In this document: piece by piece, positions 33,035 to 62,766 of the stretch
Layout: each line of letters opens with the position of its first letter
Numbering within the stretch: the first letter of the stretch is position 1
Source of the DNA: Ramazzottius varieornatus
Taxonomy: Eukaryota; Animalia; Tardigrada
Assembly (NCBI GenBank): GCA_001949185.1
Contig: BDGG01000001.1
Coordinates: 1,360,263 to 1,424,262 of the forward strand
Length of the DNA: 64,000 nucleotides
Reading direction: 5' to 3'
Translations under genes and position numbers: made by a program
Notes under the pieces: model-generated
The model's input: the letters and a program-made list of their open reading frames with translations, nothing else
Databases searched by the model: none
What the model was told of the DNA's origin: nothing

Positions 33035-33466
33035 ATGGCCTATGTTGAAAGATTGAGTCTTATCTTCGTAGTAGTGTTAATTTTTCGCTCCGGATATACG
33101 GCGAAGCCATTGCGTTCAGCGCAAACTGTGGATGGCGACGATGACGACAACGACTTCCTTCTCGAGAAGGCGGACGATTATCCCGATGAGGCTTCTGCAT
33201 CAGATGGGACGAAGTGCGCGAATCGACTAGCTATCGGTGGTACAGGAGGTAAAGCAATCGGGGGAAGGAAAGGTGAACCAGGAAGCAGTACCGACGCAGA
33301 GGGTGGGGAAGGCGGACCCGCATTCAACAACGTGGGATGTGGAGCAGACGGCGGCGCTGGGGGCAAAGCTTTAGTCAAAGACAACGGGGCAAGATCCCGG
33401 GGAGGCTTGGGTGGGGGTGCCATCACTGCATACATGCAACAATTCGTTGTGCAGAGAATGAATTGA
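33035..33466 (+). CDS. Secreted Gly-rich GGxGG-repeat protein, paralogue 1 (143 aa)
   Basis: Signal peptide, acidic spacer (DGDDDDNDF), then C...GGTGGKA...GGEGGPAFNNVGC...GGAGGKA...GGLGGGA. Single exon. Confidence 0.8.
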   Translation: MAYVERLSLIFVVVLIFRSGYTAKPLRSAQTVDGDDDDNDFLLEKADDYPDEASASDGTKCANRLAIGGTGGKAIGGRKGEPGSSTDAEGGEGGPAFNNVGCGADGGAGGKALVKDNGARSRGGLGGGAITAYMQQFVVQRMN

Positions 33467-33854
33467 AAAGCGAAGATTAGGTTGTTTTTAGTGCAGCATG
33501 ATTCTGATTTAAAGGTGCGTTAGTTTTCGGTGCTTTTTCGCCTGTTTCATTAGCTTACTTGATAGCTAGATGCAACACAGGTAATTATACAGGTGCTGCC
33601 TTTGACATAACAAAAATGGTGGAGAACCGTTATGGTTCTGTATTGATTAGATCCACGTCATCGTGTACTTCCTGTCGACTAACGGCTGTCTGCTGGCCAT
33701 ACGACAGCAGGATGGCCATCATGTAGTGAGACTGGTTTGACCAGCGAAGTACGATGGTCGCTGAAAAAAGCCTTCAGATATGTATAAGATCATTTCCGCG
33801 GACTCACTCAATTCGAAGCGCAGTCAATATGCAGCTAGTCAGTCTTGTGTTGTA

Positions 33855-34144
33855 CGAGGGAAAGGTTGTAAAGTTAGCCGTCTAAGTTCGCCTGTTCTCT
33901 ACTACTCAATCCCAAACTTTTAAAAATAGATCGACAGATAAGATAATGAGCTGTCGAATGGTAATAGGCACAGTCAACACGAGAAGTCAGAGAATCCAAG
34001 AGATCCGCAATTAAAAGAACGTTGAAATCTCATGTTAAAAACCCAAGACTGACAATCAGATAGTCGATCAAGCGATAGACGCCACAGGCGTGGCTAACTT
34101 TACAAACCCGGTATGGGGTGGCTAAGTTTACAACCTTTACCTCG
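33855..34144. mobile_element. Mariner-like MITE, copy B (inverted relative to copy A)
   Basis: TA|CGAGGGAAAGGTTGTAAA ... TTTACAACCTTTACCTCG|TA. Confidence 0.85.
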
Positions 34145-34456
34145 TACGGCAAACGTGGACCGCCCCTGTAAGTGTAGCAAGAAATCGAGAATTGTTCGAC
34201 CGTCAGAGCGCTACCGCTTGACATACTTGTTACAAAGACTGTAAATGTATTACTGTAAAAATTCGCTGTGTTCGCCGAGGGCGGATAGTATACTTAGATC
34301 ATCCCCGTCGATGGTTGAGATTTGTCCCTCAACCACCCGGTGAACATTTCCAGCAAGCATACGTACTGTGGTGAACTTTTACAGTAGTTGGTTTTTCCAT
34401 ATACCTGGTACTGGTTTTCAGCTTCGGTGGAAAATAACCTCCATCAATTAAACTAA

Positions 34457-36809
34457 CGAGGGGATTATGCCTGTCCCCACCTCTTTTTAGTCAAACTGTC
34501 CTGGCGGAACGAGAGAGGAGAGTCTCTTCTAGGATCTGAGCCAGTGAGCTAAATCCCGCGTCGATCCTGGAACAAACTACAGGGACTCGGAAGTGACGTC
34601 AGAAATTTATGCCAATTACGTAGAAACGTGATGTCTTGTAGGTCCACGTTAGACCTAACAAACAAACCCTGAAACCCATCAGTAAACAAACTTGTTACGG
34701 CAAATAGATAGTACAGAAATGATGAGCGTCATAAAAGTGATGGAAGCAAAGACGGGCCTTGCACCACCCGCAAACCAGAAGAACAATGTCTCTGCAGTTC
34801 TCGTGAAGACAACTGCCTTTCAGCTTATCAAACATAAACTTGGCTGGATTAACATACATGAAACGTTCGTCGGTATATCCCGACTTACGCCAAGCTTCAG
34901 CTATCAAATTTTCGAACCTGGGCGACCGAAACTGTTGATACAGCACAGTGCAATCTCAAAATCACATCGCGATGATGCACTTGAACGGGTAAATCGTGCA
35001 AAAAGACAAAGTCGGATATCTTCTTGAAGCAGCCTTTGTACATCCTAAAGCATAACACATCCAGCGGTTGAATTTGACCGGTAACCTTCGGAGGGATGGT
35101 CAGCATTTCATACTCCAGCTCTTCCGGTTTCAGTTCAATCACAGAATCTTGATCGGTGAAGGTCTTCCACGAGTCGGCCAAGCACCGCTCTTCCATATGA
35201 GGGAAAAGAAATTTTTCTGACCACTCTAAGTAGAGCTTCTTGGTCATCTTCCCGGATTTCGAAGCAGTGACATACAGATTATCAGCCTTGAACATCGTTC
35301 TCGACACGATCGGACCAAACACTCCTTTCTCTTCCTTCAGCGTTAGGAAAAGAACAAGAAGAAACTTACGCCTGCCCGGGGAGACCGCCATCATCACAGT
35401 ATAGCTATGTGTCATGGAATTCTCCGACTGGGTGATCGCTTCCACGTGTTTTGCTCAAGCAGTTTCCAAAGTTCTTCTTGGTCTCATCTCATATTCAAAG
35501 CCTGACTGATCCGCATTCCACAGACAGTCTAACCCGTACTGTGCGATCCTTGATCTGACAAGCGCAACGCAGGCTTCAGCACTTTCCTTGACGAGAGGCG
35601 CTTCTTGTATGGATTTTTTGGTGACGAACTTGGTTATTTTCCGGTCAACGATCCCATAATATCTAGAAAATATTAATTTCGTTTTTGAAGGAAATCGAAG
35701 CACAAAAAACTGTTGGTACCGTTTGAGTTTCCGATCCAGTCTGGGGAAGCAGTGAAACCGGCCAATTTCACCGCTTCGTTCGCAGTGAGAGCCCATCGAC
35801 GTAATCCAAATCCTTGACCACTTGCTTTTTCCTTTTAGCGAGGAAGAACTGCTTACCGACATCCAAACGTAGAGCCTTCAACTTGTCCAGCCTGGAACCG
35901 CCTTCCACTACCTGCTTTTCCCAGTCGTACAGCTGCCGTATGCTGGTTACTTTACCAAAACTTCTCTGAACAGTGGCCAACGTGAGACGCTTCTTCTTCA
36001 CGGCGTTTCTCCAGTATGTAACCGCACGTTTCTTGTATTCCAAGTTGACTACCTGATCCACTGGAAGCTTGGGGTTAGGAAATCGTGGGATGTATAGCTC
36101 ATGGGAAGAAGGTTCTGTTCCGCTGGAAACAGGCTCAAGCAGTCTATCAGGTTCCGTAACGTCGAAGTCAGCTTCACTCCGGCCATTCAGCAGGTTGCAC
36201 TGGACAACAGATGCTTCGTAATCTTCAAATGACTCGAAGCGGATCTGCAGATCATACTGGAGGTCTTCTTCAACGGCATACACAGGAGTAACACTTTGGG
36301 TGATCTTCGAGTCGATGAAATCTAGGAAAGATTACGAATCAAATTAGTATCTTTTTTGTTTTTGAGCTCCAGTGCACAGCAAGATTACCTTTAACTATGT
36401 CCTTGAACTGCCTGTCAGCTTCGCTTGGAAAGTCGTCGATACGGTAGTGCAGTTTGTAGTCCCATTCCAGCAGCTTGATAACATTCAGCAAGTTGATGGA
36501 TTCCATTTCAGAGAAGCGCAGGAATGAATGAGCAAATGAGAGAAGGTTGAAAAACAACAGAAAACTTGATGAGCAGGAAGCACAGGCTCAATCAACAACC
36601 GAATCAACCATCGAACAATCAAGTCTTGATTGTTCATTGCTCTGCTTATATACCGCCCTACTTTTGACGTCACTCCCGAGTCCCTGTAGTTTGTTCCAGG
36701 ATCGACGCGGGATTTAGCTCACTGGCTCAGATCCTAGAAGAGACTCTCCTCTCTCGTTCCACCAGGACAGTTTGACCAAAAAGAGGTGGGGACAGGCATA
36801 ATCCCCTCG
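34457..36809 (-). mobile_element. Tc4/Tc5-like (pogo-related) DNA transposon, 2353 bp, ~145-bp TIRs, TAA duplication in a CTAAG site
   Basis: C-TAA|CGAGGGGATTATGCC...TGACGTCA and the mirror ...CCCCTCG|TAA-G. Encloses a DDE_1-type transposase. Confidence 0.85.
34695..36506 (-). pseudogene. DD37D transposase (HTH + CENP-B-like HTH + DDE_1 + C-terminal Cys/His knuckle), frameshifted
   Basis: LWNADQSGF, LADSW and IQPLDV, with 37 residues between D2 and D3. C-terminal CLHENC...VCGWCKARLCFHHFY. Split over several frames and includes introns. Confidence 0.85.
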
Positions 36810-37104
36810 TAAGTCCGAGCGTAACCAGGTGAACGAGCCGAGGTTAGATACATGTAGAGCAACAACCATCGAGGTCTCATGCGCAACGCTTGCCTGTATA
36901 ATAAGTGGGTCACATGGGCGATAGATGTTTCTCCGATCGCGATCGCAATTTCCGACACAACAAACCGATTTTGACACCTGTCTGAAATCATGTTAGGATG
37001 ATCGGCCTATAAGAGCTCGTAACTGTCAGATAATGTATGCCAATCGGATATACCTCTATCGTACTTCGAACTGCAATCCTGTTAGATTGAGTTTTTTTCT
37101 GAAA

Positions 37105-37527
37105 ATGGTGTCTCGGTCTCATCTGGTGGCTGTCGCTGCCGTTTTGGTGACGGTCCTCATATCCGGCTGCGAGTCGAGGGCGATTCGCGTCAGACGGGCA
37201 GCGGCTGATGACTCTTACTCTGACAGCTCTAACGACCTGAACATCGGCCCACGTAACCGCAACCGTGGAGCCACCGGGATAGGAGGCAGGAACTGTGGTA
37301 ACGCACAGACGTACGGAGGCGCTGGTGGTAACTCCAAAGGAGGAAACAACCCTCAGAATACTGGTATTCGAAATTCTGCAGGAGGAAGAGGTGGTGTGGC
37401 TATCAACGATACCGGCTGCGGAGCGAAGGGCGGCAGCGGTGGTTCCTCTATCGGGGGGCGTGGAGGCGACAGTCGAGGCGGAGCAGGTGGCCTAGCCCTT
37501 GTGACTGACTACGCGTTTGGGCGTTAG
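37105..37527 (+). CDS. Secreted Gly-rich GGxGG-repeat protein, paralogue 2 (140 aa)
   Basis: Signal MVSRSHLVAVAAVLVTVLISGCES, furin site RVRR, acidic spacer, then C...GGAGGNS...GGRGGVAINDTGC...GGSGGSS...GGAGGLA, ending FGR. Confidence 0.8.
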   Translation: MVSRSHLVAVAAVLVTVLISGCESRAIRVRRAAADDSYSDSSNDLNIGPRNRNRGATGIGGRNCGNAQTYGGAGGNSKGGNNPQNTGIRNSAGGRGGVAINDTGCGAKGGSGGSSIGGRGGDSRGGAGGLALVTDYAFGR

Positions 37528-38199
37528 TCTTCTGGGCTGGACTTTTGCTCTATTCATTTGGTCATGGGCCGAGTAAAATCTTGTCTGCGTTTGTCGTTGC
37601 ATGTTCGCTATACACTGAACGGTAATTTAATCTTGCCATCTGCTCAAAAATAGCGGTTTTAAAGCTAGCTCTTCGTTTAATAAATAAGGCAAATTTGTCC
37701 AGATGGGACATCGACTCGCCAGGTTAAGTTACGATGGTTTGCTCAGTCGAATACTACTATTTTGATAGCTCAATTTCTACACTCGTATCATGTCTCAGGG
37801 TCCTTGACTTTCTGTTTACTGCATGATCGAGCATCAACTTCGGGCAATTCTGAGCAACAATTAGGTCCACGTTTTCCATAGCGAGAACTATTCATAAACA
37901 AGCGTGCTTCTTTGCTTTGCGATTTCCTGCCATGCCGTACGTGGTCTTGCACTACACGCTTTTCCTCTGACCATGTTAGCTCGTACGAACTTGTCTGCCG
38001 GCAACTTTCCTTTCCGATTCCACGTCATTGTTGTTAATGCTTGCGATCCGCTCGCAAGTTTTGCCCGCCCACCTTCGGTGCATTTACTGTGTTCTGTACC
38101 ACTGGCGATGTAGAGTTGTCAGTATGAAAAATCAATCGATCGACAGTCGCGGCAGGTTCGTTGGCTAGGTACAATCAAACCTTAATTAGCACTTCCGGT

Positions 38200-40384
38200 G
38201 CAATCAGCTGTTTACCTCGTAAACCAACTAGCCTGGTTTACCTTCGCTGTGTGGTTTCTCCTGGTACATCCACTGTACACACTCGTTGCATTGCCTGTTT
38301 GTGTGACCACGCGCCGATGGCCTCCCGAAACGTGGACTGCCATATCGCCAGTCAGTTCAGTGTTCAGTTCTTCTTACAAGGGAATAGCGCCAACCATTAA
38401 ATTCCGATGCTCGAACCGATATTGCAGGAAGACGGAAGAGAGTTTGCTCTACAGCCTGAGCTATCCTACTCCTATACTAATATAACCCGAAAGAAACTTC
38501 TGACAAGGTCGTGGACCGTCTAAAAAGAAATTTTTAAACAAAAATCGCAGCAACATATTCTCGACCCGCTCGGATGGGCCACAATCAACGCGTTGGGCCA
38601 CAATCAAGCAATCAACTCGTTGCACAGTAAAAAGTACATAGGGTGTAGTTCATTTGCATGTCACGTGACTGCGCAGAACTTTGGAGGTAATACAGTAAAT
38701 CCGAATACGCTATTTTTCGAAAATATGGAGATTAAGTTGCCACTCCCGTTCACTTTGCAACTGTCCATCACTGAAGATGAGGTCCTACAAGCAGCTTGGA
38801 TTCGAAGAAGTCGAATGGACCCTTCAAAGTTACTGTGGCTTTGCTGCACCGCACAGGTAGTGCACTCTTGCCGTCACATACAAAACTATTTAACCTCTGT
38901 TGTAGCGCCGGATATTTTCCCGACTGCTGGAAAACCCAGTATGTCACCCCATTCCAAAGACCACTAAAGACCCAACGTCAGCTTCTTCATGGCGACCCAT
39001 TTCCATGTTGCATCCTCTTTCCAAATGTTTTGAAAAAATAATCGGTAAGCGATTGCGAAACTTTTTGGAAGATAGAAACGCATTTGGCACTAGTCAGTTC
39101 GGATTTCGAGAGAGCCATTCAACAGAGCTAGCAAGTTTGCTGATTAGTCAGTACTGGGCAGATGTGTTACACAGTAAAGGGGAAATCGATGCGGTGTTTC
39201 TTGATTGCACAAAGGCTTTTGATCGTGTCGATCATAAAGTGATTCTGCAGAAACTTGAGCGACTTCAGGTGCCTCTTCAGTGCAGAAGATTACTCGACCG
39301 CTATCTGTCGAACCGAAAATAGGTGGTAGTTGTGAATGGTAAGTCGTCGGGTTATCTGCCAGTTACTAGTGGAGTACCTCAGGGCTCCGTTCTTGGTCCA
39401 ATTTTGTTCATTGCTCTGATGTCGGACATAAATACCATTGTATCACCTGGCACCTGTCTTAGTCTTCTCGCATACGATATTCTAGTATCCCGTCCTCAAG
39501 AAACTGCCGTTGACTGCGTTACTCTCCAAACAGATCTGAACAGCATCTCCGCCTTGGGCAGATCCAATCAGCTCACCTTCAACCCTACAAAGTCCTCTCA
39601 CCTTCGCCTAAGCCGACGAAGAAGTCCAGGAAGTGCTGAATACCAACTGGACGGAGTCGTCGTGCCTACTGTATCCACCGTCAAGTACTTGGGTCTTCAC
39701 ATTGATGGCCGACTAAACTGGACAGCACACTGGTCTGCAAAATTTGCAACAGCTCGAAAACGCATCCGTTACCTGAATTCTCTATTCAAGTACCGTAACT
39801 CGGCGGCTCGTATCAAGCTGTTCGATGCTCTGGTGCAGTCTCTTTTCGACTACTGTCCATCTGTGGTGTGGTCGCTACTGGTAGGTACCGTCAGAGAGAT
39901 CGAAAAATGCGCCGGTAAGTTTCTCCGCACCGTTCGCCTTGGTGTCAGTTCTAGCTGGCCAGACCATGAGCTCTACCAGCATAACGCTTCCGAAGTTGGG
40001 TGGAATAGTCAGCTGATTTGTCGGGTGAACCTTTCTTTATCACTTGTATATAAATTTGTTGTTGGCTCTGTGCCGTTGGGCTTTTGTCTATTTCAGCCAT
40101 TAGAAATACGGGAAGAAGATGGTCCCTCGACCTCGACGCGAAGTTTGGACCGAATACGTGCTCATCCCTGTCCCATCCAACCCACTGGGTCTTTTCTGAA
40201 TGGTCGCAAGATACCCACCAGTCCTGATTCCTTCGTCGGGATCATGTGCAACTTGTGGAATGCACTAGATTTTCCAGCTGCTGCTTTTGAGAATAAATGG
40301 AACTTTGACCTTGCTTTGAAATCTGTTGACTGGAAGTCCTTTTCGTTGCTAAATCGTCTGTTTCCCTCGGAACTACTATATTGA
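38200..40384 (+). mobile_element. Decayed non-LTR retrotransposon (LINE) reverse transcriptase
   Basis: WRPIS, QFGFR, FLDCTKAFDRVDH, SGVPQGSVLGP, the catalytic motif degenerated to LAYD, KYLG. In-frame TAG at 39320-39322 and upstream frameshifts. 5' boundary approximate. Confidence 0.9.
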
Positions 40385-41095: not shown

Positions 41096-41142
41096 TTAGC
41101 TACGGTGGGTGGGCGAACGAGAGTGGTAACTTAATCTTCACG

Positions 41143-43275: not shown

Positions 43276-44911
43276 GCGGTTTGAGTGCCCATGGCGAGCA
43301 CCCAAACCTCCGAGCCATGTTAGGACAAGAGTCATGAATGGGGAGAGCGTTCTTATGAACTTTGAGCAACAAAGCAAATCTTCGAATTGGTACTCTTCTC
43401 TTCTGGGTAGCAAACGCTTCTGACAATATTAAACTGTAACCTGTAATGAGGGACACTTGCTATCCAACTTCGCACCTTTGCAGACCCCTACAGGTGACGA
43501 TTGACCAGCGGTCGCCCTTTTGCCGACTACTTAGCCGTGCATCAAGGGTAAAAATCACTTAGGAAAGATCCATGCGAATTATTTTTCGTAACTTGACACG
43601 GCAAGCGACATCGTATTGCACGCCCGGCTTATTACACATTAAATGACGTTCGGTGTTTGGCCGCGATAGCTTTTCAGGTAGAAAGCTTCTTAGACGACAT
43701 CCTCCTTACCGAGAAACCATCCCTTTTTCGCCATAACGTCCATCTTCATCTGAACTTCGGACCTAGAAAAGCGCCCATGAGTAATACAGAAGGCTGCGTT
43801 AGCCGTTGCAAACCGACCCAAGCAGTGCCAGATGAAAACTTCAATTATTCTTCAATTATGATTGCATGGAACGGCAACTGCTGCGTTGGACGAAGTGGGT
43901 GTGTCGGTGAACCGGTTTGGCGATTGCTCGAGGGCTTTGCTTATACCGACGTTCGCTAATCAGATTGCAGTGGCTGACTAGGAGCTGAAAAGGGAATTAT
44001 TTCAACCGGCAAATCCTGATCATAAAACCAACATGGCATGAAGACAGAAGAAACTCTGCTCCGCAGTTTAAGCTATACTGTAAAACTACATTGTTGAAAG
44101 TGCATCCTTTCCGGTGCAAATATGGTTGGTCTGCTGTCTGTAAGCTATGAACATCTATGGTGGTCTTGCGGATACAACTGCTAATCGAAAATGTGCACCG
44201 GAAGGGATGCTCTTTCAGCACTGCAGTCCAAAGTTTAAGATAGAGAACCTAGAATTTTCCAGTTCTATCTTGTCGGTCTGCTGGTACACGTTCCTACAGA
44301 CTGAACAGTATCAAAATCTGATAATAAATTCTGTTTGCGCTGCCCTCTGTGGCGCATGAAGTTAAAATACAATCGCATGCTCAACCTCAGGTACACTGTA
44401 CGCCAAAACTAACCGCTAAAACTGGGTGATGGATGGAGTCAGATAGAAGCCAGATGTTATTTGCCCATAGGGCAAACTATAATTTCCATTGGTTAAACCG
44501 TAATAAAGCTCCAGCTGCGATCCTCCAGCTGCTGTACCACGGTCCTTTTTACCGGTTAATTTTGGCGTACACAGAAGATGGATTTGCGACAGGCGAATGA
44601 ATTATTGTCCTGTCACCGAACACGCTAATGAGGTTGACTTCTTGAGGTCGCTAGATCTACAAGCACCAACGATTAAGGTTAATGGTTCGTAGCTTTCTGC
44701 CTGTTATGTAGTGTTGACATGAGGCTCTTTACAGCGGTAAGCGCACGACAGCAATTGGGTCAACAAGTTTGTGATACATCCCACGGTGAATGCTTGTTCG
44801 ATGGAACACAATCAATGCCGTGAAGATAAATTCATCTCGGCAACTTTTATCTACTTCAGTCTTTCGTAACTGTATTGCTTCACCTTGGTATAGTGAATAT
44901 CGGCAACTAAG

Positions 44912-45384
44912 ATGGATCTCTCTCGAGGTTTCTTTTTTTTATCGGTTGGGCTGGCCGTGGTGATGGTATTTACTGTCAGAAGCGAGGCCAAACTGCTGCA
45001 GAAGCTCCTGGATAATGCGAGAGCTGGAAGTGAGGACGGACTCGAAGATTCAGGCAATAGCCGAGCTGTGGAGCAACTGGACAGAAGCTTGTGGATAGGG
45101 GATATGGGGGCGGATTGCCAAGCGGATCACCGAGCGGGCGCAAAAGGTGTCCTAACAGCAAAGCAGCGGTAGCAGGCTCTGGTGGAGATGCCATAGGTGG
45201 AAATCTGCCTACCGGCACACTCCGCAATGCCGCGGGCGGAAGTGGCGGGTTTTCTGGAAATAACGTTGGTTGCAAATCTGTGGGTGGTGATGGTGGTGAT
45301 GCTGCTGCCGGTTCCGGAGGAAATGCAAAAGGAGGAGATGGGGGGGACGCGCTAACCTTTGGCAATTTTCCTCTTCCTGGCTGA
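44912..45384 (+). pseudogene. Secreted Gly-rich GGxGG-repeat protein, paralogue 3, with one frameshift in the spacer
   Basis: The signal and spacer ORF starts at 44912. The Gly domain (RKRCPN...AGSGGDA...GGSGGFSGNNVGC...GGDGGDA...GGDGGDA...PG stop) is in a different frame, open only after TAG 45058-45060. No plausible intron. Confidence 0.7.
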
Positions 45385-45534
45385 ACTTAACGCAGATCCC
45401 ATCCCATGTGATCTTCAGTGTAGCTTAGATGTAGGTCACATCGCGTGTCGCTATAGTGGATTACCATAGTTCTCGGCTCGCTGTGTAGTCCGCAAAGAGC
45501 GTCTTCTTGTCCCACACCTTATCAACATTGAATA

Positions 45535-51479: not shown

Positions 51480-53273
51480 GCTTTCGTGCAGTTGCGCCGG
51501 AAGTGACAGCGCCATCTGCCTTAGCAAGCATATCCAGCACGCCGAACAGCAGTCCGAACAGCCTATACTCAATGGAGAAGGACAAGAGACCAAGCCGACT
51601 TTCAACGTTGGAAGGAGCTGGAAGCAGTGAAGAAGAGGCTCATCTTGGCTGACAAGTACCGTAAGCTATGAGGTATCGCCTTTTCGTCTCGCAGGAATCC
51701 CACGGCTGTATAGAAGTTTCTGAAGAAGAACTCAGCATCCGCGTCGATCCCTCCAATACCCATTCCAGGCAGCGACGATAAGTATCTCATCGAGCCGCAA
51801 GACAAAGCCAACTTCATCAGCGACCTCTTTGCCAAAGAGTACGTATCCTGTCCAAGCCATTGCACTGCCCAGGTCTCGCAGCGCCAGCCTTTGCAGATCC
51901 TTCAAGAACCGCAGTGCGAGCAGCCAACAGTAGCAACGTCCACCGTACACATACTGATACGGAAGCTCGACCCGAACAAGGCAGCAGGCTCATCGCTCGT
52001 CACCAACCGGCTCCTGAAGATTGCCGGTACTACCATCATCTATCCCTTGTCGCGCCTCTTCAACCTCATCCTGTCTACAGGAAAGTACCCCGCTGCCTGG
52101 AAAACCGCCGACGTCGTACCTGTGCCAGAGAAAGGCGGATCAACATTCCGACCAATCTCGCTCCTCCCTCCCCTGTCAAAGCTGTTTGAAACAGTTTTGA
52201 GTGATCATATAGACTCTTTCCTTGACAGGAACAAGCTGCTGTCCGACACCCAGTACGGATTTAGGAGGCGCAGGTCGACGGAGATGCAATTATTGCAAAG
52301 TGAAGTCTCCCGTCTCCCGTCAAGCAAAGTGAAGTCTCCCGTCTTTCAGTATGCCGATGACATCCTGTTGTACCGCATCATTCGAAAGAACGATGACTGC
52401 GCAGCTCTACAGCAAGATGTGAACGGCATTGCGGAGTGGTGCATCGAGACCGGCCTTGAAGTAAACCCCAGCAAGTCGCAGCATCTTCGGATCTCCAACA
52501 AGCGAACCAGCAACGCAAAGACAGACGGTGGAAATCACAATTTCTCTTCTGTAATTATTCCGTCTGTTACAGAAGCAGAATGCCTCGGAGCCATCTTCTC
52601 CAGCAAACTCGACTGGACAGCCCAGGTCGACAAAGTCACGGCAAAGTGCAGGAGAAGACTCTGCGCAATCAAGGGCTTCTTTCCTCGACGATTCGGCTCC
52701 GTCAAGCAGCTGCTCTTCAACAGCCTGGTTCGTTCGGTTATGGACTATGCTTGCTCCTGCTGGCATTCCACGTCAAAGACACTGCAAAGACAGCTGGAGA
52801 CCATCCGGAAGAAGTTTCTCCAGAGTATCCGGCTTGGTTCGCTCTTGAATGATGGACATGATCGTGATTTCAAGCAGTACCGATCACACCTGTCAGTAGT
52901 GGACTGGGAGCCTGTCTGGGAGCGGCGCTGCAAAGGCATTTTGCTGAATGCCTTTAAGATATGGGCTGGTGTATTTACAGGTGGCAACAGCATTCTCAAG
53001 TAGGAGCGATGGAAGGACAGCTCGATTACAAGAAGTCAAGCCAAAGAAATGGTCCTGTCGCCGGTCTCTACAGCTCCACCTTCGTGCAGGATGCTAGAGT
53101 CCACGCTGGGGTCCTTCGCTTACGTGGCCACTGCCTTGACGAAAGATCCTTTGTTTAGTCCTAACCTGAGCCAGTTGTTGTCAGTAGAAGCCTTTAAATC
53201 CTACCTGACAAACATACGTCTTTCTAGATTTGAATGGAGCAAAGAGAATATCGATCCTTTTTTGTTGGTTTAA
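51480..53273 (+). mobile_element. Decayed LINE RT with an in-frame internal deletion
   Basis: KAAGS, WKTADVVPVPEKG, FRPISLL, QYGFR..RST, then directly QYADD. The DxxKAFD and GVPQGS motifs are missing. Stops at the 5' end and at 53001-53003. Confidence 0.9.
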
Positions 53274-53744
53274 AACTGGTAGTATTTTATATTGTTTGAA
53301 ATCACTTTATCCCTGTCTCTTCCGGCTCTCTAGCCAAATATTTCTCAAATTTGTCATACTTACGCTTTGCCTGGCTAGCTCTCTGACAATAAGGGTATAT
53401 ATATATAGTCAAATCGTCAGTTTTAAGATCGGGTTAGTTAACATCCCCTATCCAGAAATAAGCTGCGGTTTAGGCAACAGAGACGGAGTATTTTCTGCTT
53501 TTCGGTTCGTCCTAGCTCCTACGTTCGCGGGGGGCTTCTAACGACTGAGACGAAGGTAGCACGGATCTGAGTGGTAGTTTTACTTTGGCAGCACTCGAGG
53601 TTCTCGTAACATCCACGAGGAAGTTCTCAAACTGACAAACTAGAATGACAGACGGAGCTAACGCGCTGTCCAATGGAAATCTAGCTGAAAAGCAGAACAG
53701 GCAGGGAGTCCCCAAACGGACAGAGAGAACAGCGACACTACTGT

Positions 53745-56439
53745 CTACAGATGTCCTTCCTCCTCGTCGATGTACGGTACGGGAGAATCCCTTGCCTTAC
53801 TGGTAGAGGCTCCAGCCCCATATCGATCATAGTCACTTGTCGAGCTTGCTTTCCGATAGTACGTCAGACGCTTGCTGAAAGCTCCAAGAAGGTCTTCGAC
53901 ACTGATGTGAACCGCCGGGTTCTTCACGCAGTGTGGATGATAAGTGTTTATCCAGCCTGCGAAACCAAAACAGTTAGGGAGTCCCCAAAGCACCGTCAGA
54001 ACTATCCACAAGTATGTGTTCAGGAAGCGTACCCGTGATATCGATGACGGTATCACGGCCTAGAGCGGCCTGCAGCCCGAAGTTCCGGCCGGTGCAAATG
54101 GCCATGGCGGTATTGTGGCTACCGAACAGGAGAAGTGCGAGGTCGACCGCATCAAGCATCAGATTGGATCGGAGTTGCTTCTTGAAGACGGAGAAACGAG
54201 CCGTCAAGACCCACCGCAAGCTACCCGGATACATTTCTTCCTTTCCATATCCCGGATTCTCCATGCTGTTCTTCACACGTTGCAGCAGGTTCTTTTGAAG
54301 AGGCGTGAGACCACCTAAAGATGAACATTTTTATTTTGTGTGATGCAGATGGACTAAAATTTATTGAAGGCGTTGCTTACTGGAAGGTGATCGAGCATTC
54401 CTTCCAGCCGGACTCGAGGAAACTTTCAGCTTTAAAACAGGGTGGGAGTTCCCATATCCGTCCGAGCTGCGGCTCCCCAGTAGTGAACTGGAGCCGGCGG
54501 CTGAAACCAATACATTATCAAAACGGGTTATAATGGGTTACCAGCAAGTTAAGGCCGGCTCTGACCTGGTGTCTTAGGCAGTTTCACTGCAATATCCCTG
54601 CAGTACCTGAAGGCACCAGTTCCTTTCCACGGCTTCAGGCACTCTGGCTTTGGGAACGCTGGGTTCGATCCTCGTAAACATGTGGGTATTTTCCTGACAC
54701 TGGAACTAGGTTAGCATGGACAAATTACAATACAATTTGAAATGGGATACGGAACGGTACTTGAAGCCAGCGGATCCAGAGTACTGTTGAGTGGAGTTCC
54801 ATCTGCTGTAGAAACTTCGAATGATGGCTGTATTGTCCGATGTGAAAGTCTCAACATACCATTCGAGTTTCTTGATTTGGTCGAGAGAGAGTTCCCATCT
54901 AAAGTCTGTCGCTGCCCATGCGACGATGCTATCGCATGAGGAGAGAGAGACTCCGTGGGTTTCGACGAGCCTGCGAAAATACTGCTGGTACGGATGTTAA
55001 ATACAGACAGAAAGTTGAGCGTACCATGTACTGGAGACTTCCGATCACTTTCAGCTTCTTCATCATCTTCATCGCTCCAGACGACTCCCTGGCGCGGACG
55101 TCTGCGTTGCTTCGGATAGCTGGGTCTGGAAGCAGGTCGGCCACCAGGTTCATCTGAAAAAACATTGCACTTAGAAAACTGTCGTCAACGGAAGTTTTGC
55201 GCTTACCGCGCAAGGCCAAACTTCTCGGCTTTTCCAGAAGGGAATTCCCGTTTTGCGCTGATCGATCATTACGATGCGGGCTCGCCACTGGGACAGAAAC
55301 AGAATTTTTAAAAAAAATAGACAATCGAAATTCGGTGAAATTTCCAAGGTGAAACTGAAATACCTCGTCCGTTGTCTTCGGTGTCCTCGCTCCAGTCAAT
55401 CCTGGGACGCGGTGGTTTTTCTGGTGACGACTCAGGCGTGATGGAGAACCGTTCACGAAGACCTGAAAAGGAATACGGATAAAATCCTTCGGATTTGCTG
55501 GCTGTGACGTCACTATGTGGGTTAGCTGTGGTGCGTAGAAGCATCCACGAGCAACATGGCGTCATCCAGACGTTTCATCTGAATGATGCACTGACGTCAT
55601 AACTTTCCTTCGCAGCGAAAAACACACTTGTGACGTCATGCGGGTAGTGAGGGTCCGTACCTGTCAATCGGCGCCCAGTAAAAGGATCAAACTTCCATTG
55701 TCCTCCATTAGACGTGAAGCGAGAGGCAGGTGAGGCTTCACGATGTCTGTCGCGTCCTTGTCCGGTGCTGCAACTTGACAGCGGCGTTGGTATGATCGGT
55801 TGATCCGGTATTGACTGTCTCGCTATGGCGGAGTTTTCCTCACCGAGACTCGAATCGTTGTCCTGCGTCATAGGCAAATCCAGCTGCTGTGATTCTTCGG
55901 GAAGATAGTTTTCAGGAGAAGCTTCACGATCAGCTGTAGACTTTGGGCCGTCCAAGTCAGCGAACAGGCCATTCACAAAGCTCTGTTCTTTCTCCTGGTG
56001 GGAAGGGGAAAGCCGTTCGCAAGCTTTCTTTCGAGATCTTCCCTGCAAATGGAATACGGAAAATTTCTGCGGAAAACTCTGCAGGTTCAAACAGACTGGG
56101 AGTTCCCAACCCGTTTTTGCGGCCAGCCTCATATGTTACAGTATAACACAATAATAACAAAAACTGGATCAAAACACATCAAAGTTGATCTGTACGTACG
56201 ATGGCCCTCTCTTCTAGTTGTTTAACTAGACCATCGGCAGACTTTCGCACAGACGTGACCATTCGGATTCCGGCTCTGGACCATTGTTGAAGTTGGTCCA
56301 TATTGAAGGGATGCTGGACGATGATGAAATCACCAACTTGAAGATTCTCACCGTAAACAGCACGATTATCAAGCTTCCATTTCTGGCCCGCTTTCTGGCC
56401 CGCCATGTTTAGCATCATGCATCTCTGGTCGAAAAACAT
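53745..56439 (-). CDS. Unresolved minus-strand multi-exon orphan coding segments inside the motif island
   Basis: Several protein-like ORFs (53745-54276, 54929-55150, 55575-56040, 56179-56439) with splice-like boundaries. No family recognised and some stops are present. Confidence 0.35.
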
Positions 56440-57836
56440 GATGACGATGTAATCTGCCGAAACAATAAGCTTCCTGTAAGAACATCATGAATCAATGAAA
56501 AATGTAAGACTGGGAATTCCCGACCCGTTCATCAGCCAAGCTGCATACAACTTACGTTTGCTGTGAGCTTTCTGCAGACGCTGCTTTTCTGGATCTTCTT
56601 CAGACTCCGCCATGTCTTTGACAGTGCGTTTTCGGGTCGATCGACCTGAAAAGGGGAAGAATAAACCGGCAAAGCTAGGCTAGAAAGTCTTGGTGCACCC
56701 TCAGTGGTGAGCAGTACCCGTTGTTTTGGAGGCTTCTTCAGGTAGCTCAGCGTCCTCTTCTTCCACGGAGTTGTTCCTCGTTTGTCGTCTGGCTGCCATC
56801 CTGGCTTTTTACACGTATTCCGCAAAACCTACCAAAGCAAAGGAGCAGTCAAATGAAGGAAGAGTATGGGATCACTAAAGAGAAATCAGTGATTCAGTCT
56901 GGTCATTACGACCGTGTGGGAGTTCCCGTCCAGAATAACCCAGCGCTGCGGCCTATCCGTTTGTGTTCCGGAGGGTGTAATATCCGGGTTTTCGGAAACT
57001 CAACGATGGTTCCCCGTAACGATGTAAGTTTCGGGTTTCCGGCCCCAGTTGATCAATTGATTTTGTAATACGCTCAGCGTGTCTTTGCAAAGTATCAATC
57101 AACTGGATAGCTCGACTGTCTGTTAACGCTGCGTTTTCATTCCAGTACTCAAACTGACTAGCAGTTGTGCCACAACCCTGCTTTATAGTTGCGCAGTTGG
57201 GATTCAGCTTCCGGTTGAGACTTTTCTCCGTAGTTTTGCTCGTTTCGGCCTAGAATGTTTAAGCCAAGAAAGCGAAGAAGGGTTTACAGCGTATGTACGC
57301 CTTCGACTAGAGTCAGGAGCCGTGGATTACTACGTTACTTACCACGGCGTAATGAGGTAAGATCATCTGTTCGTAGCGGGACTGTGGGAATTCCCTTGAC
57401 TGTTGATTGAGAATCGCCTTGATCATTTTTGTTTCAGAATGTGGAAGACATTCGCAGGAACGAAGAAACTGCCAGCCATCCGAGCACGTCCGAAGATGAA
57501 GGAGAAAGTAACGAGCAGGTGTGCGAGGAGGGACTGGGCGCGGATAGGGAGTTCCCAGAATTTCTTTCGAAAGTGTGCGCAGACCTACCGAAAATTAATT
57601 GTTTCTGTCGATGATCTATTGCGTCCTCTTGTGATTGTGTTGGCAAACGATTTTATTCATGCCGAATTCGCGATGATTCCACCCTCGCTTCAGACTATCA
57701 TGTAAAACGGATCATGTAAGACAAAATACGAAAGAACGAAAGACATTATTCGTACGCGAAGTAAAACGGGTAGGGAGTTCCCACTTCAAAAACTGCGGAA
57801 AGAAACTTCAACGTAGTTCTCGTTAAGAGTAAGTAC

Positions 57837-58680
57837 CTCAACATCTACTTCGCCAAATACCACAGGAAAATTCGGTGCAGGGAGGCGGACTCCAACGGGC
57901 TCCGGTGCTTTGCGACCCCAGGAAAAAGTCGGACTGGCCAGCAAAGGAGCTTGTCGCTTCGGGCAGTAACAGGCGTGGCGGAGCCTCTGTTCGACCGACA
58001 GATCCTTCAGCAGGAGCAGGCATCGCTCACATCGCGGAGAGTTGCTCGTGACCTAGAGGAAATTATGTCTCACATGAAGTAATATATGAAAAGATATGAG
58101 TGACGCACCTCAACATCGTGCTGGCTGACGACATGGACATTGTAGTCCTTCCAGGAAATCTTTCCGGCAGTTGAGGGACACAAGTAGCAGGCCAACTGGA
58201 TGGGAGAAGGAAGAAGACGAGTCACAGGACTTCTAAAAACAACAGAAGGACCTTGATACTTTGTTGGACTAATGTTTGACCGCATTGATGCTTACCTCCC
58301 TTTTTCTGTTCGAAGAGTGATACGGAGGCTGTCCAAGATCTTTCGGCTGTGGAACTCACTGCCGAGAGCACCTCCGTCAACTGGAAAGATGAGCTTGGTG
58401 AAGAAGGGAGTTCCCAATGCGAGGCAGGTGGCCTTGATCACCTGTAAACAAGACCACGTTTCGAAAGAAGTTCTGATGGCGAAGAATGCCGGAACTGTTT
58501 TTCACGGTAAAAGTATCGGGGTGAGCTTACCTCAATATTCCCTCCATCACGGTGGAAAAAGGGTCGAAGGATGGCTTCAACGTACTGCATGGCTTCCTTA
58601 CATTCTACTGTATCGATTCCACAAGACGACAAGAGATGGGCAGGTCGGACGCAGTCGACCGGAAGAGCGAAGGCAGCCAC
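57837..58680 (-). CDS. Spliced zinc-finger gene segment (C2H2 finger + UBZ4-like CCHC finger), ends not resolved
   Basis: Four exons join in frame through GT-AG introns: ...DGGNIE|VIKATC...EKG|RSPV...CYLCPSTAGKISWKDYNVHVVSQHDVE|VTSNSPRCERCLLLLKDLSVEQRLRHACYC... Confidence 0.6.
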
Positions 58681-59038
58681 GAGGGCAGGACGGGCTCCAA
58701 AGAAGGCAAGGAAGCTGGTGAAACGCCGGATTTTCTCGAGACCAGCGCTTTTCGGCCATCACTCTATGGAGGGTCCTTCCTGCATCGTCAACATTCACTT
58801 CGCTATAAGAGAGAACATTTAAAATAACCGAATATTCCGCGAGAATTAGTTGAGAGCTGAACAAATGAACGTACAAAATCGTTATCTCAAGTGGCGCACG
58901 CTTTCGTTATTAATGGTTGAAGCGTGCGCCACTCATGATACGACACCTACTCTGCACGGTTCCAAACAAGCTCGTCCAGCTCCTCTAGCAAATGGAAGGA
59001 CTCGAGGAACGAACACAGCAATCGGCGGCGACCAATCC

Positions 59039-60059
59039 CTACGGGAACAATTCCCAACAAGTGCTCCACACCTTGTCGGAACAAGCAGCTAAGGAGCGCT
59101 TTACGGAGGAGAAAGCCACTGACACCATCTGTAGAAGTGGAAGAGCTGACCATGACGACCTGCTTTGTAGATGTGGACGCGTTTGCGTAGACGCGTGCTT
59201 CCGTGCTGGTCGACGCGTGCTTCCGTGCTGGTCGACGCGTGCTTCCGTGCTGGTCGACGCGTCGGACGTTGGTGGTTGCTCAACCGGATAGGGAGTTCCC
59301 CGCCTAAGCGCAGCAACCTCGCGCAGTAACCGTCGGTTCTGACGCTGGACTTCTTCTCGTTCCGCAGTGACGGCTGCATATTGCGCCCGGGTTGCTTCCA
59401 GCCCACTATGAAGCAGCGTTAGCTGTCCAGTCAGGGCCGTGGCAGCCGATGTCCAGATGTCCATCGCGTCCACAGTGCCTTGGATGACAGCGGGACAGAG
59501 GTTGATGTTCCTCACTATTCTACTGCAATTACAGACGACACGTTAGAGCGAATTCCCAATGCCACGCAAAATATTCGGCAGAAAAAAGTAAAATTAAGAA
59601 AGCAGTTACGTGCACTTCGGGCATGGTTTGCCGTGGCGGATGACCATGCTGAGGCAGCCTCGGTGGAAGAAATTTCCACATCCCCCATCAGCAGCCAACT
59701 TCCCGCATAAGAACGAGTAGTCTCGGTGGATGACGAGCTCGGTGTCCATGGGAAGGTTCGGAACACCGGGGTACAGCTGGATGTCCAACAGGAGAGCGAG
59801 GCAGATCTGACATTCCATCTGCGGACTGTTGTTCTGCAAAAACAACACAAGAAAAATGTACGGCTCGGCGTATGCAGGCTCGTGAAACATGGGTACTTCT
59901 GGTCCGCAATAGCTGTACGCTGTAGTGTATGCAGGTACGTGAAACATGATCGCATTCTTGTTCGCCGATCTTCTGCAAAAAACCCCATTGAGCCAGACCA
60001 CTCACCGTCATCAATGCAGCAAGTTCGACCGCAGAGCGGTCAGAGAAGTCTTTGGACAT
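59039..60059 (-). CDS. RING finger + coiled-coil protein (TRAIP-like architecture), at least 3 exons
   Basis: Exon 1, 60059-60006, is MSKDFSDRSAVELAALMT followed by GTGAGT. Exon 2 from 59818 is CQIC...CGNFFHRGC...CPKC. A phase-2 intron leads into the heptad segment LEATRAQYAAVTAEREEVQRQNRRLLREVAALR. Confidence 0.65.
59190..59262. repeat. 22-bp tandem repeat, 3.3 copies, inside the RING gene ORF
   Basis: GACGCGTGCTTCCGTGCTGGTC at 59190, 59212 and 59234. Confidence 0.9.
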
Positions 60060-61213
60060 TTTCTGGGTGGGAGTTCCCTTACGGCTGTACCTGAAAACCG
60101 AGGGCAAATCGGCCGAGCTGTCTCAGGGAATTCGCTGTAAAATGCACTGAAGCGATTGCTGGAAGCTCTCACGCAAGGCTGCAACTACGTTTGATCCAAG
60201 ACTCCGAGATGGCTGATCACTTTACGAAGTTAGGTAGGAAGGTCCGTCGACAGTCCTAGCAGAAAGGCTAACGAGCCAATGCTCCAGTAAAGATCAAACA
60301 TGTCCGAAGAAAGAGTGAAGGATGCCAGAAACTTCAAAACAAAACTAGAGGTAGCTTGCGCTGTTCCGATAGAGTCGGACCCTGTGGCTTGCAGTGCGCA
60401 GTTTAAAATGCGCTCTTGGTGAGCAGTACAGAGTGTGGGCAGTGTCAACACGGAGAAATTTTATTTTCGTTTTCACCACAGCGAGTTGATTGGCATGGTT
60501 GATCAGTCGTTTTTGCTGTTTCTACTTCGCGCTACATTCTACTGACAGCTGGTTGCCGGTTTTAGTGAGTTCGTCGTTTTGTTACCTGTGCAAGTCGCAG
60601 CTGGCTCGAAGCTGAATAATGGATTTCAGGGTTTCTGGATAGGGATCGCAGTGACACTGTTGCTCATTTCGAACATGCACGGTTATCTTTCATATTCTAG
60701 TCCAAGGTCGTCGATTTATACATTCAAACGATTTGCGTGTCACTTATCGTGCGCCTCTTCCGTGAGGCTCGTTCAACTATTTCTTTCGCTCTAAATTATC
60801 ATTTCGTGAGGAACAAACCGACACACGAAATTCATGTAACCGGTCGAAAACTACCGAGTTGCCTACGTGGCCATCAATTTAATCTCCCGCGACAGCGCCA
60901 GATCAACAGAAAAATAATCGTAACCGACCACTGTTTTGTGGTTCATGGTTAAGTTTATGTGTCCACATAGGTCAGTGACCGAGGCTCATCACAGAAACCG
61001 GAGACGCTAATCACGGTAAGACTGACTGTAAGTTGACACCGGTGTAGAATCCTTGCCCGAGGTTACGAGCTGAATCAAGAAGCAGAAGAGCCCAAGAGCA
61101 GAAGATAATTTGAGAAACCTTCCTTTAGAAAGAAAAACGAAAGTTCAAGTGTACAGCTGTATAGTTCGAAGTTGACTTTGCGTCCTGTCACGTTGGTGAG
61201 TCTCATTCGCAAA

Positions 61214-62766
61214 ATGGTATTCCAAAACCGTTCGAGTTGGACCTGGATCCTTTTGTGGAGTACATTGTTATTACGGAACTTCCAGGAGCTCTGCGGCGCT
61301 CCATCAATAGGCACACCAGCTGACGAAGACTCAAGTTTCGATCTCGACAAGATAGCTGCCGCCTCGAACAGGGACTGTCAAGGACAAGAAGCTGTTGGAG
61401 GACCGGGAGGAGACGCGGAGGCTGGACCTGGCGGGAACGCTCACGGTGGCGCAGGCGGAAAGGCCAAGGCGGGATCTAACTGCGTCGGCATTGGTGGCAA
61501 AGGTGGCACTGCCATAGCCGGGAGGCCAGCTGGAGCCGACAAGGTTGGTGGAGAAGCCTATGGAGGTACGTCGTGGAAGAGACTGCCTCGATTTGCGGTT
61601 TGTGAATCAGTCGATTCTGACACAATCGTCTACTGTAATACGGAAGGAGTTCTTCAAAAGCATCATACATAGAAACAGTGTATGTTGGTTCATGTACTGT
61701 AAAACTGCGCTGCACCCGGCACAGTGCGTACGGGAAATTTCCCAGGTAATTCAGGGATAGACCCCCACGACCCACGGCGATAATTTATGTGTACTACAAC
61801 ACAGGCGGATGTAGCGAATTTCTGCAGTACTATTTTTGCCAGGTATGTTCATTCAATAAAAAAAACAGCTTGTAAGTAAACTCTCAATGCTTTGTAGGAA
61901 AAGGTGGAGACGGCCACGGGGGCGACTATGCCGTTGGCATTGGAGGGCCCGGGGGAGACGCCATTGGTGAACTGGGGTATGGTGGGGATGGTGGGGACGG
62001 TTATGGCGGGAAATGCGCTAAAGGCTATGGAGGAAAAGGAGGCCGTGGTAGCGCTGGGCGGGGGAAGGACGGTATGGGCCACCCCGGTACTATGGTAGGC
62101 TGCAAAAGGGCTGCCGGAAACAGAGATGCCACCGGGAACCCAGGTGAAACGGTGGACAAGACGGTGGATATGCAGCTTAACGCTCGTTTGGAACCAGGTG
62201 GTGGAATAGCGGACCTCGGCAATGTTACACTGCCCGCCATCACTAATCAAACCTTCAAAAGTGCGCCGAAAGCAGTAAGTCAACAGCCGGATGACTCGTC
62301 AATCAACACAGAAGACGGCAACCAAAAGAACGTAGCAGGAAACACGCAGAGCGAAGGGAATGTAACCTCCACAGAGAGTCAGAAGACGGCCAAACAAAAT
62401 GTTGATGTTTCTCTACAAAATAAGACTGAGGAGAGGAATGAAAGACAAAAGTTTCTTTCCACGTTGGACGAACATTCGCTCGGAACATTGCCAGAACCAG
62501 CAAAGCAACAAGAAGAAACCAGCGTTTCCCTGCTACCTATGACGACAACTCCAAGTAATTTAACAGTCGAAGCCAAACTGGGAGTCGATGGTACTTCGGC
62601 TCTCACCACAAGCACGAAGGACAGACACGAAATTTTCACGACTATAAGTGGGGATGGGGAAGTTAAGATTAGTGATGAGTCCCAAAAAGTTCAGTCAGCT
62701 ACTCCCAATACTGAAACCAGCACCGCCGTCGCAGTTACCACAAGCGTTACCACCAAGACAGTATAA
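61214..62766 (+). CDS. Secreted Gly-rich GGxGG-repeat protein, paralogue 4: extended repeat domain + Thr/Ser-rich tail, join(61214..61565,61898..62766), 406 aa
   Basis: Signal peptide, acidic spacer, then C..GGPGGDA..GGAGGKA..C..GGKGGTA. The phase-1 intron GTACGT(61566)...TTTGTAG(61897) joins in frame to four more GGxGG units, a second Cys pair and the 62074-62766 ORF. Confidence 0.8.

What the first reader, a model, noticed from the sequence alone, without database searches (positions are those of the whole stretch)
33035..62766. Cluster of four paralogous secreted GGxGG/Cys-clamped prepro-proteins: candidate polyproline-II-bundle ice-binding or antimicrobial family
Seen: four + strand genes (33035, 37105, 44912, 61214) share a signal peptide, an acidic spacer (with basic sites RVRR and RKR in paralogues 2 and 3) and the core C-x6-7-[G/A]GxGGx[A/S]-loop-GGxGGx[A/S]-x3-5-C-x3-GGxGGx[A/S]-loop-GGxGGx[A/G]. 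Paralogues 1-3 share N[N/D][V/T]GC before unit 3. The loops are highly diverged while the Gly and Cys register is fixed, which points to a folded domain rather than low-complexity drift. Known: Gly-periodic 9-mers joined by turns and held by disulfides build antiparallel PPII bundles, as in the springtail (snow flea) antifreeze protein and the ALK/LTK glycine-rich domain. Signal + acidic propiece + Gly-rich mature peptide is also typical of arthropod Gly-rich antimicrobial peptides. Inference: this is a lineage-specific secreted PPII-bundle family undergoing birth-and-death among transposons, possibly for freeze or desiccation tolerance or for immunity. I do not recognise it as a named family.
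Basis: partly seen in the sequence, partly recalled or inferred. Interest (0 to 1): 0.85.

Follow-up and report, generated by a model that had tools for sequence, protein, structure and literature searches.

The report
Tardigrade secreted glycine-helix sandwich proteins
Four neighbouring tardigrade genes, one of them frameshifted, form an unnamed family of likely secreted proteins that are predicted to fold like the springtail antifreeze protein but lack its alanine-rich face, so they more likely act as binding scaffolds outside the cell than as antifreeze.

Summary
The family is real. The window is Ramazzottius varieornatus (gene 4 = RvY_00495). Genes 1-3 are clear, old paralogues; gene 4 is more distant. 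Transcript contigs cover genes 1-3, and published FPKM show all four near zero in embryos, on in adults, and not raised by drying.

Gene 4 is a 406-aa two-exon model with 7-8 helices and a Ser/Thr-rich tail. Gene 2's spacer is net basic. The repeat is about 16 residues, not 9. A fifth partial copy (RvY_00075) is annotated joined to EGF repeats.

The fold idea holds at prediction level. Gene 4's domain models confidently and matches the springtail antifreeze structure (Z 6.7, 3.0 A) and PGRS-type models (TM 0.72-0.80). The antifreeze idea is weak: only 16 of 57 outward positions are Ala/Ser/Thr/Val, 25 are charged, and genes 1-3 have four helices. Antimicrobial features appear only in gene 2.

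Best reading: a small polyproline-II sandwich displaying variable loops for extracellular binding. Function is untested, and no relative outside this species was found by searches of low sensitivity.

The parts
33035..33466 (+). Gene 1, 143 aa, intronless: hydrophobic leader, acidic spacer (12 D/E, 4 K/R), four-helix core with Cys61 and Cys102. RvY_00482 by gene order (inferred).
   Evidence: ORF; exact protein in NCBI/UniRef; contigs in 4 of 4 runs, e.g. 32978-33824; order between laminin RvY_00479 and DDE RvY_00483
37105..37527 (+). Gene 2, 140 aa, intronless: leader, RVRR, short acidic patch then Arg-rich stretch, four-helix core with Cys64 and Cys105, NDT sequon, ends in Gly-Arg. RvY_00485 by order (inferred); highest FPKM of the four.
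   Evidence: transcript 37039-37914 with adapter and poly(A) loose ends; FPKM 33-45 in adults
44912..45172 (+). Gene 3, first frame: leader plus spacer, stops after 86 aa; this is the annotated product. RvY_00487 by order (inferred).
   Evidence: mRNA 44858-45550 unspliced
45139..45384 (+). Gene 3, out-of-frame core: RKR, two Cys, four helices, register intact, no in-frame ATG upstream
   Evidence: contigs of X2, X6, X13 show no indel and no splice
61214..61566 (+). Gene 4 (RvY_00495) exon 1: weaker leader, acidic spacer, Cys55, Cys90, helices 1-3
   Evidence: Database protein P0004; AlphaFold2 pLDDT about 91 over residues 61-100
61567..61897 (+). Gene 4 intron (GT..AG, 331 nt), from the annotated model; no contig joint for it was listed
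   Evidence: model equals P0004; two exons in the published table; not among the joints shown (9 joints not shown)
61898..62766 (+). Gene 4 exon 2: helices 4-7(8), Cys157, Cys186, then a tail of about 200 aa rich in Thr/Ser/Glu with five N-glycosylation sequons, predicted mostly disordered
   Evidence: overlapped from 62109 by contigs of a transcript spliced on the opposite strand
34452..36814 (-). DDE_1 DNA transposon with 153-nt terminal inverted repeats between genes 1 and 2 (neighbour, not part of the family)

Best explanation
These genes encode an unnamed Ramazzottius family of likely secreted proteins whose core is predicted to fold as a small two-layer polyproline-II sandwich and likely serves as a rigid scaffold that displays variable loops to bind a surface or partner outside the cell. 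Shown: the genes, the repeat, the transcripts of genes 1-3, the frameshift in gene 3, and adult-on/embryo-off expression without drying induction. Predicted: each 16-residue repeat is short strand, GGxGGx helix, short strand, turn; glycines pack inward; successive helices run antiparallel; four helices in genes 1-3 and 7-8 in gene 4. Inferred: the Cys pair sits at the same end of helices 1 and 3 and forms a disulfide; the spacer is cut off at basic sites; gene 4 holds its domain on a glycosylated stalk; the ligand is a microbial, food or matrix surface met after hatching. Gene 3 is most likely a recently broken gene that is still transcribed.
For: Fold: AlphaFold2 gives gene 4 residues 61-100 pLDDT about 91 and 101-130 about 80, with 3-4-residue strands flanking each GGxGGx. 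That model aligns to the springtail PPII bundle 7jjv with Z 6.7, rmsd 3.0 A over 82 residues. The independent Atlas model matches PGRS-type models at TM 0.72-0.80 over 117-126 residues. The weak gene 1 model has only two matches with Z of 2 or more among 48,161 chains, both springtail PPII antifreeze proteins. Scaffold logic: Gly/Cys register fixed while loops and outward residues diverge, with saturated third codon positions; this is the design described for phage gp38 (PMC12032242 passages; bioRxiv 2023.11.25.568672). Modularity: stalk-like tail on gene 4 and a copy annotated in front of EGF repeats. Expression.
Against: No ligand, tissue or activity is known; the binding role rests on analogy. 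The fold is predicted only, from alignments of 4-5 sequences; the gene 1 model is poor (pLDDT 48) and its Z values (3.4, 2.7) are below the tool's noise level. The highest Z values for gene 4 go to YadA-like beta-roll heads (Z 8.3-9.0, but rmsd 6.6-9.2 A), and an RTX beta-roll fits as tightly as 7jjv (Z 6.0, 2.9 A over 97). Four helices is fewer than in any of the six bundles (6-14 helices) reviewed, so genes 1-3 may not fold alone. The EGF fusion may be a gene-model error (RvY_00075 has no leader and FPKM under 1.5). FPKM come from one library per state.
Confidence: 0.42

Rival explanations
1. Structural protein of an adult-made extracellular layer (cuticle, gut lining, or the eggshell built by the adult ovary). 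The PPII cores would stack or be cross-linked rather than recognise a ligand.
For: Secreted, glycine-rich, off in embryos and on in adults. Gene 4's second half carries Tyr-Gly-Gly units, a motif common in eggshell and cuticle proteins (recalled).
Against: FPKM are modest (2-45), low for a bulk structural protein (inference). No Pfam cuticle or chorion family. Near-zero embryo values argue against cuticle, which embryos must also build (inference). Juvenile data could not be mapped.
Confidence: 0.18
2. Prepro antimicrobial or immune effector peptides: the spacer masks a mature peptide that is released at a basic site and attacks or agglutinates microbes.
For: Leader + spacer + small Cys-clamped domain; gene 2 core is cationic (net +4, pI 9.8), preceded by an Arg-rich stretch and ending in Gly-Arg, a possible amidation signal (processing rule recalled). 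Tardigrade antimicrobial peptides are still an open question (PMC7056985 passage).
Against: Cores of genes 1, 3 and 4 are near neutral (+2, -1, +1) with one aromatic residue in genes 1-3. Gene 4 has a long tail. Gene 1 has no dibasic site before its core. Known arthropod glycine-rich peptides are linear and cysteine-free (recalled).
Confidence: 0.15
3. Ice-binding protein convergent on the springtail fold, shaping or restraining extracellular ice in a freeze-tolerant animal.
For: The closest solved PPII structures are springtail antifreeze proteins. Secreted, Cys-clamped, GGx repeats. Constitutive expression is compatible: a cited paper's title says tardigrade freeze tolerance involves no significant transcription change (seen only in a reference list).
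Against: The springtail ice-binding face is flat and rich in Ala with Ser, Thr, Val, alternating helix by helix (PMC10235112 passages). Here 16 of 57 outward positions are Ala/Ser/Thr/Val, 6 are Ala, 25 are charged, and no odd or even face exceeds 3 of 6 (face assignment inferred from the repeat). Helices are about two GGx repeats against 3-4, and four in number against six or more. Embryos hardly express the genes.
Confidence: 0.12
4. The core is not a PPII sandwich but a parallel beta-roll (RTX- or YadA-like), or is mostly disordered in genes 1-3.
For: Top Z scores for gene 4 are beta-rolls; a serralysin RTX stretch is the only PDB sequence match, at E about 3; gene 1 models are low-confidence.
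Against: YadA-like matches have rmsd 6.6-9.2 A. The RTX calcium-binding Asp position is Asp in 0 of 8 helices of genes 1-2 and 7 of 11 in genes 3-4 (RTX consensus recalled). The GGxGGx segments are not strands in the model. The Atlas model matches PGRS-type bundles.
Confidence: 0.13

Closest known systems
Collembolan PPII antifreeze proteins (HhAFP 2pne, GrAFP 7jjv)
   Same: Leader, GGx repeats, cysteines, predicted two-layer antiparallel PPII bundle.
   Different: No Ala-rich flat face; shorter and fewer helices; short strands flank each helix; spacer before the domain; stalk-like tail in gene 4; no sequence match.
Mycobacterial PE_PGRS glycine-rich domain
   Same: GGxGGx helices in a predicted PPII bilayer; Atlas models align at TM 0.72-0.80; PGRS bilayer described in PMC13243192 passages.
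   Different: No PE domain or PGRS Pfam match; 4-8 helices against dozens; disulfide-type cysteines; animal secretory leader. Both sides are predicted models.
Phage S16/T-even gp38 adhesin polyglycine sandwich
   Same: Conserved glycine motifs as scaffold with hypervariable loops, the design proposed here.
   Different: gp38 has three layers, ten helices and all-glycine buried helices; not among the listed structural matches; receptor binding is shown for gp38 only.
ALK/LTK glycine-rich domain
   Same: Extracellular animal PPII bundle involved in ligand binding.
   Different: Fourteen helices with polyglycine cores inside a receptor kinase; no Pfam or PDB sequence match.
Arthropod glycine-rich antimicrobial peptides (recalled)
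   Same: Leader, spacer, glycine-rich mature part; gene 2 is cationic.
   Different: Conserved Cys pair, periodic folded core, near-neutral charge in three of four members.

Membership tests
Collembolan PPII antifreeze proteins | G-X1-X2 repeats with X1 often Gly | tested here: met
   xGGxGGx units in all four genes, but about two repeats per helix against 3-4
Collembolan PPII antifreeze proteins | Two-layer antiparallel PPII bundle | tested here: inconclusive
   Predicted models point to it; beta-rolls score as high in Z; coordinates not inspected
Collembolan PPII antifreeze proteins | Flat Ala/Ser/Thr/Val face alternating with a polar face | tested here: not met
   16 of 57 outward positions small, 25 charged, no face above 3 of 6; faces assigned from the repeat
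Collembolan PPII antifreeze proteins | Six or more helices | tested here: not met
   Four in genes 1-3; gene 4 has 7-8 and does meet it (known sizes)
Collembolan PPII antifreeze proteins | Stabilising disulfides | tested here: inconclusive
   Two invariant Cys, topologically at the same end by inference; distance not measured
Collembolan PPII antifreeze proteins | Thermal hysteresis or ice binding | not testable with these tools
   Needs recombinant protein
Arthropod glycine-rich antimicrobial peptides | Cationic mature peptide | tested here: not met
   Net +2, +4, -1, +1 for the four cores; only gene 2 fits
Arthropod glycine-rich antimicrobial peptides | Leader, acidic propiece and basic cleavage site | tested here: inconclusive
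   Acidic spacer in genes 1 and 4, net basic in gene 2; RVRR in gene 2; gene 3's RKR is out of frame
Arthropod glycine-rich antimicrobial peptides | Microbial killing and induction by infection | not testable with these tools
   No infection data found
PE_PGRS | PE domain and PGRS profile match | tested here: not met
   No Pfam or NCBIfam family; structural likeness only
RTX beta-roll | Nonapeptide with calcium-binding Asp at position 6 (recalled consensus) | tested here: not met
   Period 16 (half-period 8), Asp in 7 of 19 helices and none in genes 1-2; serralysin match E about 3
ALK/LTK glycine-rich domain | Profile or sequence match to the domain | tested here: inconclusive
   None found, but HMMER is insensitive on this glycine-rich core
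Cuticle or eggshell structural families | Chitin-binding or chorion Pfam domain | tested here: not met
   No Pfam family for any member

The most novel reading that the evidence does not exclude
Tardigrades independently evolved a minimal, disulfide-clamped four-helix polyproline-II sandwich with strand-capped ends, smaller than any described natural bundle, and use it as a diversified recognition module (a gp38-like receptor scaffold in an animal), either free or on a mucin-like stalk or EGF repeats; a version that binds ice without the canonical alanine face is not excluded.
Probability: 0.25. Interest if true: 0.72.

Novelty: new variant of a known kind. Interest (0 to 1): 0.47.

Why it matters
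Glycine-rich PPII bundles are a rare fold known from about six protein types, none reported from tardigrades in the papers searched. A natural four-helix version with free loops would mark the lower size limit of the fold and be a small scaffold for design. It also gives a short, testable candidate list for tardigrade extracellular biology (ice control, immunity, feeding), where effectors are largely unknown. The caution is that function is untested and the family may be a minor species-level orphan.

Tried and rejected
Assembly error as the cause of gene 3's frameshift: rejected, transcript contigs of three studies match the window letter for letter. An intron repairing gene 3: my first test found none because of an off-by-one error; the corrected test lists 54 donor-acceptor pairs that restore the frame in silico, several of them GT..AG (for example 45030-45073, 44 nt, shorter than the 54-198-nt introns seen), but no contig is spliced there. 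Contigs drop rare forms, so a minor spliced isoform is not excluded. Programmed -1 frameshifting: no canonical slippery heptamer in the overlap.

No RNA holder is listed on record; the runs are marked 'RNA?' by guess. Gene 3 had no cover in X9, X12, X16, X24 (4 of 7 runs laid), which shows nothing. Gene 4's exon 1 had only depth 2.3 and 0.9 in 2 of 4 runs and its splice joint was not listed.

Homologue searches: word-seeded search found only genes 1 and 2 among the 7,988 candidates scored; exon 2 found only gene 4; full HMMER over 1.84 billion representatives found three self hits, RvY_00075 and one algal protein that I rejected as chance. Sensitivity is low: RvY_00075 is 52/66 identical to a training row yet scored 43.8 bits. 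A control with a neighbouring gene found only itself, so it does not show that other tardigrade proteomes were reachable. Metagenome scans: nothing among 595 and 332 pattern matches. Prokaryote genomes were not scanned (one search gave no scan). Foldseek against PDB and viral models: nothing at E 0.001. gp38, Obg and ALK were not among listed structural matches, which excludes nothing. Atlas feature search: no usable hit for gene 1, 0.76 for gene 4. No further copy in the window. No whole genome was held, so the family size is a minimum. The complex predictor was not available, so dimerisation is untested.

Literature: no paper with the RvY identifiers, none with tardigrade + PPII + glycine, nothing relevant. 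UV-series supplements carry no RvY identifiers; developmental tables use other identifiers. Earlier scan notes: nothing relevant.


Full report
IDENTITY. The window is from the tardigrade Ramazzottius varieornatus: gene 4's exon 2 retrieves a 100%-identical 406-aa protein named RvY_00495. In the published gene table (PMC5034306, supplementary data 2; rows seen), laminin gamma is RvY_00479, a DDE_1 gene RvY_00483 and an RVT_1 gene RvY_00489. These match Pfam hits at 34897 and 52284, so by order genes 1-3 are RvY_00482, 00485 and 00487 (inferred). All are listed as hypothetical with no similarity.

OBSERVATION. 26 of 32 GxGGx[ASG] hits in six frames lie in the four genes. The units are more regular than composition gives. 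Genes 1-3 are paralogues even when glycines are held fixed in the null (z 4.7-5.5, 0 of 1000); gene 4's first half passes against genes 2 and 3 but not gene 1. Two Cys and 17 Gly columns are invariant. Third codon positions are 19-36% identical against 52-64% at first and second positions, and blastn finds nothing between the genes, so the duplications are old and the protein register was kept. The first two figures are raised by aligning on glycine-rich protein.

CORRECTIONS. Gene 3's leader ORF ends at 45172; its core is in another frame. Contigs from X2, X6 and X13 (three studies) span 44858-45556, 44858-45550 and 44934-45501 with no other letters and no gaps, so the shift is in the mRNA. 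In-silico introns could restore the frame, but none is seen in contigs, and there is no canonical slippery site (which corrects an off-by-one error). The core frame is still open and in register, so the break is probably recent. Gene 2's spacer is net basic. Gene 4 has 7-8 helices, four domain Cys and a Thr/Ser/Glu-rich tail with five sequons. A fifth, partial copy is RvY_00075: 52 of 66 residues identical to gene 4's exon 1, diverging at the position of gene 4's intron and annotated as continuing into EGF repeats. It has no leader and low FPKM, so it may be a mis-joined fragment.

EXPRESSION. Contigs cover gene 1 in 4 of 4 runs, gene 2 in 4 of 4 and gene 3 in 3 of 4 (3 of 7 distinct runs). 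The runs are only guessed to be RNA, but the contigs end in poly(A) at 37914 and 45550, begin with a cDNA adapter at 37039 and 44858 (adapter identity recalled), and most unique flanks are empty. Published FPKM for embryo 0-2 d, embryo 3-4 d, active, dehydrated, rehydrated 80 min and 3 h (one library each) are: gene 1 0.45, 0.31, 6.6, 3.9, 5.2, 2.7; gene 2 0.15, 0.37, 44.9, 37.0, 39.2, 33.3; gene 3 0.25, 0.23, 3.7, 1.6, 2.6, 1.7; gene 4 0.34, 0.40, 6.4, 4.6, 4.0, 4.9. All are post-embryonic and none rises on drying; the paper notes that this species changes little on drying in general. Gene 4 is the least secure: an opposite-strand spliced transcript overlaps its 3' part. That neighbour (RvY_00496 by order) is expressed in embryos at 22 and 11 while gene 4 is not, which argues against simple spill-over.

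FOLD. AlphaFold2 on gene 1 was poor (pLDDT 48), yet its only matches with Z of 2 or more among 48,161 chains were the two springtail PPII antifreeze proteins (Z 3.4 and 2.7), which is weak. On gene 4 the block means over residues 61-130 were 91, 91, 91, 92, 78, 86, 79, falling to 65 and below after that. Short strands flank each six-residue GGxGGx segment, and the glycine-rich stretches half a period away are turns, giving a 16-residue repeat. This model matches YadA-like heads with the highest Z (8.3-9.0) but rmsd 6.6-9.2 A, the springtail bundle 7jjv at Z 6.7 and 3.0 A over 82 residues, and an RTX roll at Z 6.0 and 2.9 A over 97. The tool warns that Z under 8 can be a common arrangement. The Atlas's own model matches PGRS-type models at TM 0.72-0.80 over 117-126 residues. 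Together with the GGx pattern, which is the published signature of PPII bilayers, I put the PPII sandwich at about 0.75.

FUNCTION. Springtail antifreeze proteins have six or more helices of 3-4 repeats, with alternate helices forming a flat face rich in Ala with Ser, Thr and Val (PMC10235112 passages). Here 16 of 57 outward positions are such residues, 25 are charged, and no face exceeds half. Ice binding is therefore unlikely but untested. Only gene 2 looks like a cationic peptide. What is conserved is the scaffold and what varies is everything exposed, as in gp38, where glycine motifs hold hypervariable receptor-binding loops. With the stalk-like tail of gene 4 and the possible EGF fusion, an extracellular binding scaffold is the best single reading (0.42). 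Structural (0.18), antimicrobial (0.15), non-PPII (0.13) and ice-binding (0.12) readings remain.

DISTRIBUTION AND NOVELTY. No relative outside this species was found, but a 79%-identical copy scored only 43.8 bits, so distant tardigrade members would be missed, and my control for reach was uninformative. No Pfam, NCBIfam or PDB sequence family matches. Paper searches found no description; they cover open-access full text only. The six bundle types reviewed in bioRxiv 2023.11.25.568672 (parts 1-3 of 4 read) have 6-14 helices. I file this as a new variant of a known kind of fold, not as a member of any of those families.

PAPERS SEEN. PMC5034306: passages and rows of supplement 2; its large PDF could not be read. 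PMC10235112, PMC13243192, PMC13389832, PMC7056985, PMC12032242, bioRxiv 2025.06.10.658754: passages only; that preprint's supplements, which cluster tardigrade-specific proteins, were not seen and may list these genes. PMC9145152: supplements searched, no hit. PMC6925440: first parts of two supplements. PMC5531438: list of supplements only. Mobjerg 2022: title in a reference list only.

VERDICT. A real, expressed, unnamed family with a credible PPII-sandwich prediction and one broken member. The antifreeze and antimicrobial readings are not supported by surface composition. Interest 0.47.

Noticed in passing
window 34452-36814 (-): DDE_1 DNA transposon with 153-nt terminal inverted repeats between genes 1 and 2.
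   Followed up: partly
window 28030-28323 and 33852-34146: Two inverted copies, 92-94% alike, of a roughly 295-nt element, probably a MITE; one lies just downstream of gene 1.
   Followed up: no
window 39005-40384 and 52284-53003 (+): LINE reverse-transcriptase fragments (RVT_1 E 0.048 and 5e-7).
   Followed up: no
window 62109-63600 (-): Transcript spliced on the minus strand whose 3' end overlaps gene 4's exon 2; by order the ZP-domain gene RvY_00496.
   Followed up: partly
window 13729-14508 (-): Orphan secreted-looking protein with repeated GPxPxGC cysteine units; only its own cluster found.
   Followed up: partly
RvY_00075 (P0005), outside the window: Copy of gene 4's exon 1 annotated as joined to Notch/Delta-like EGF repeats at the intron position; exon shuffling or a gene-model error.
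   Followed up: partly
window 53400-60650 (-): Multi-exon minus-strand region laid by many spliced contigs that differ by 1-5%, so a repeated, expressed element or gene family; includes a RING-like ORF at 59606-59947.
   Followed up: no
window 19387-26747 (+): Laminin gamma gene (RvY_00479), used as a landmark.
   Followed up: no
window 11278-13098 (-): CUB plus trypsin-like protease gene, adult-biased like the family (RvY_00477 by domain).
   Followed up: no
window 45640-46230: CGATAT-rich repetitive element directly after gene 3's poly(A) site.
   Followed up: no
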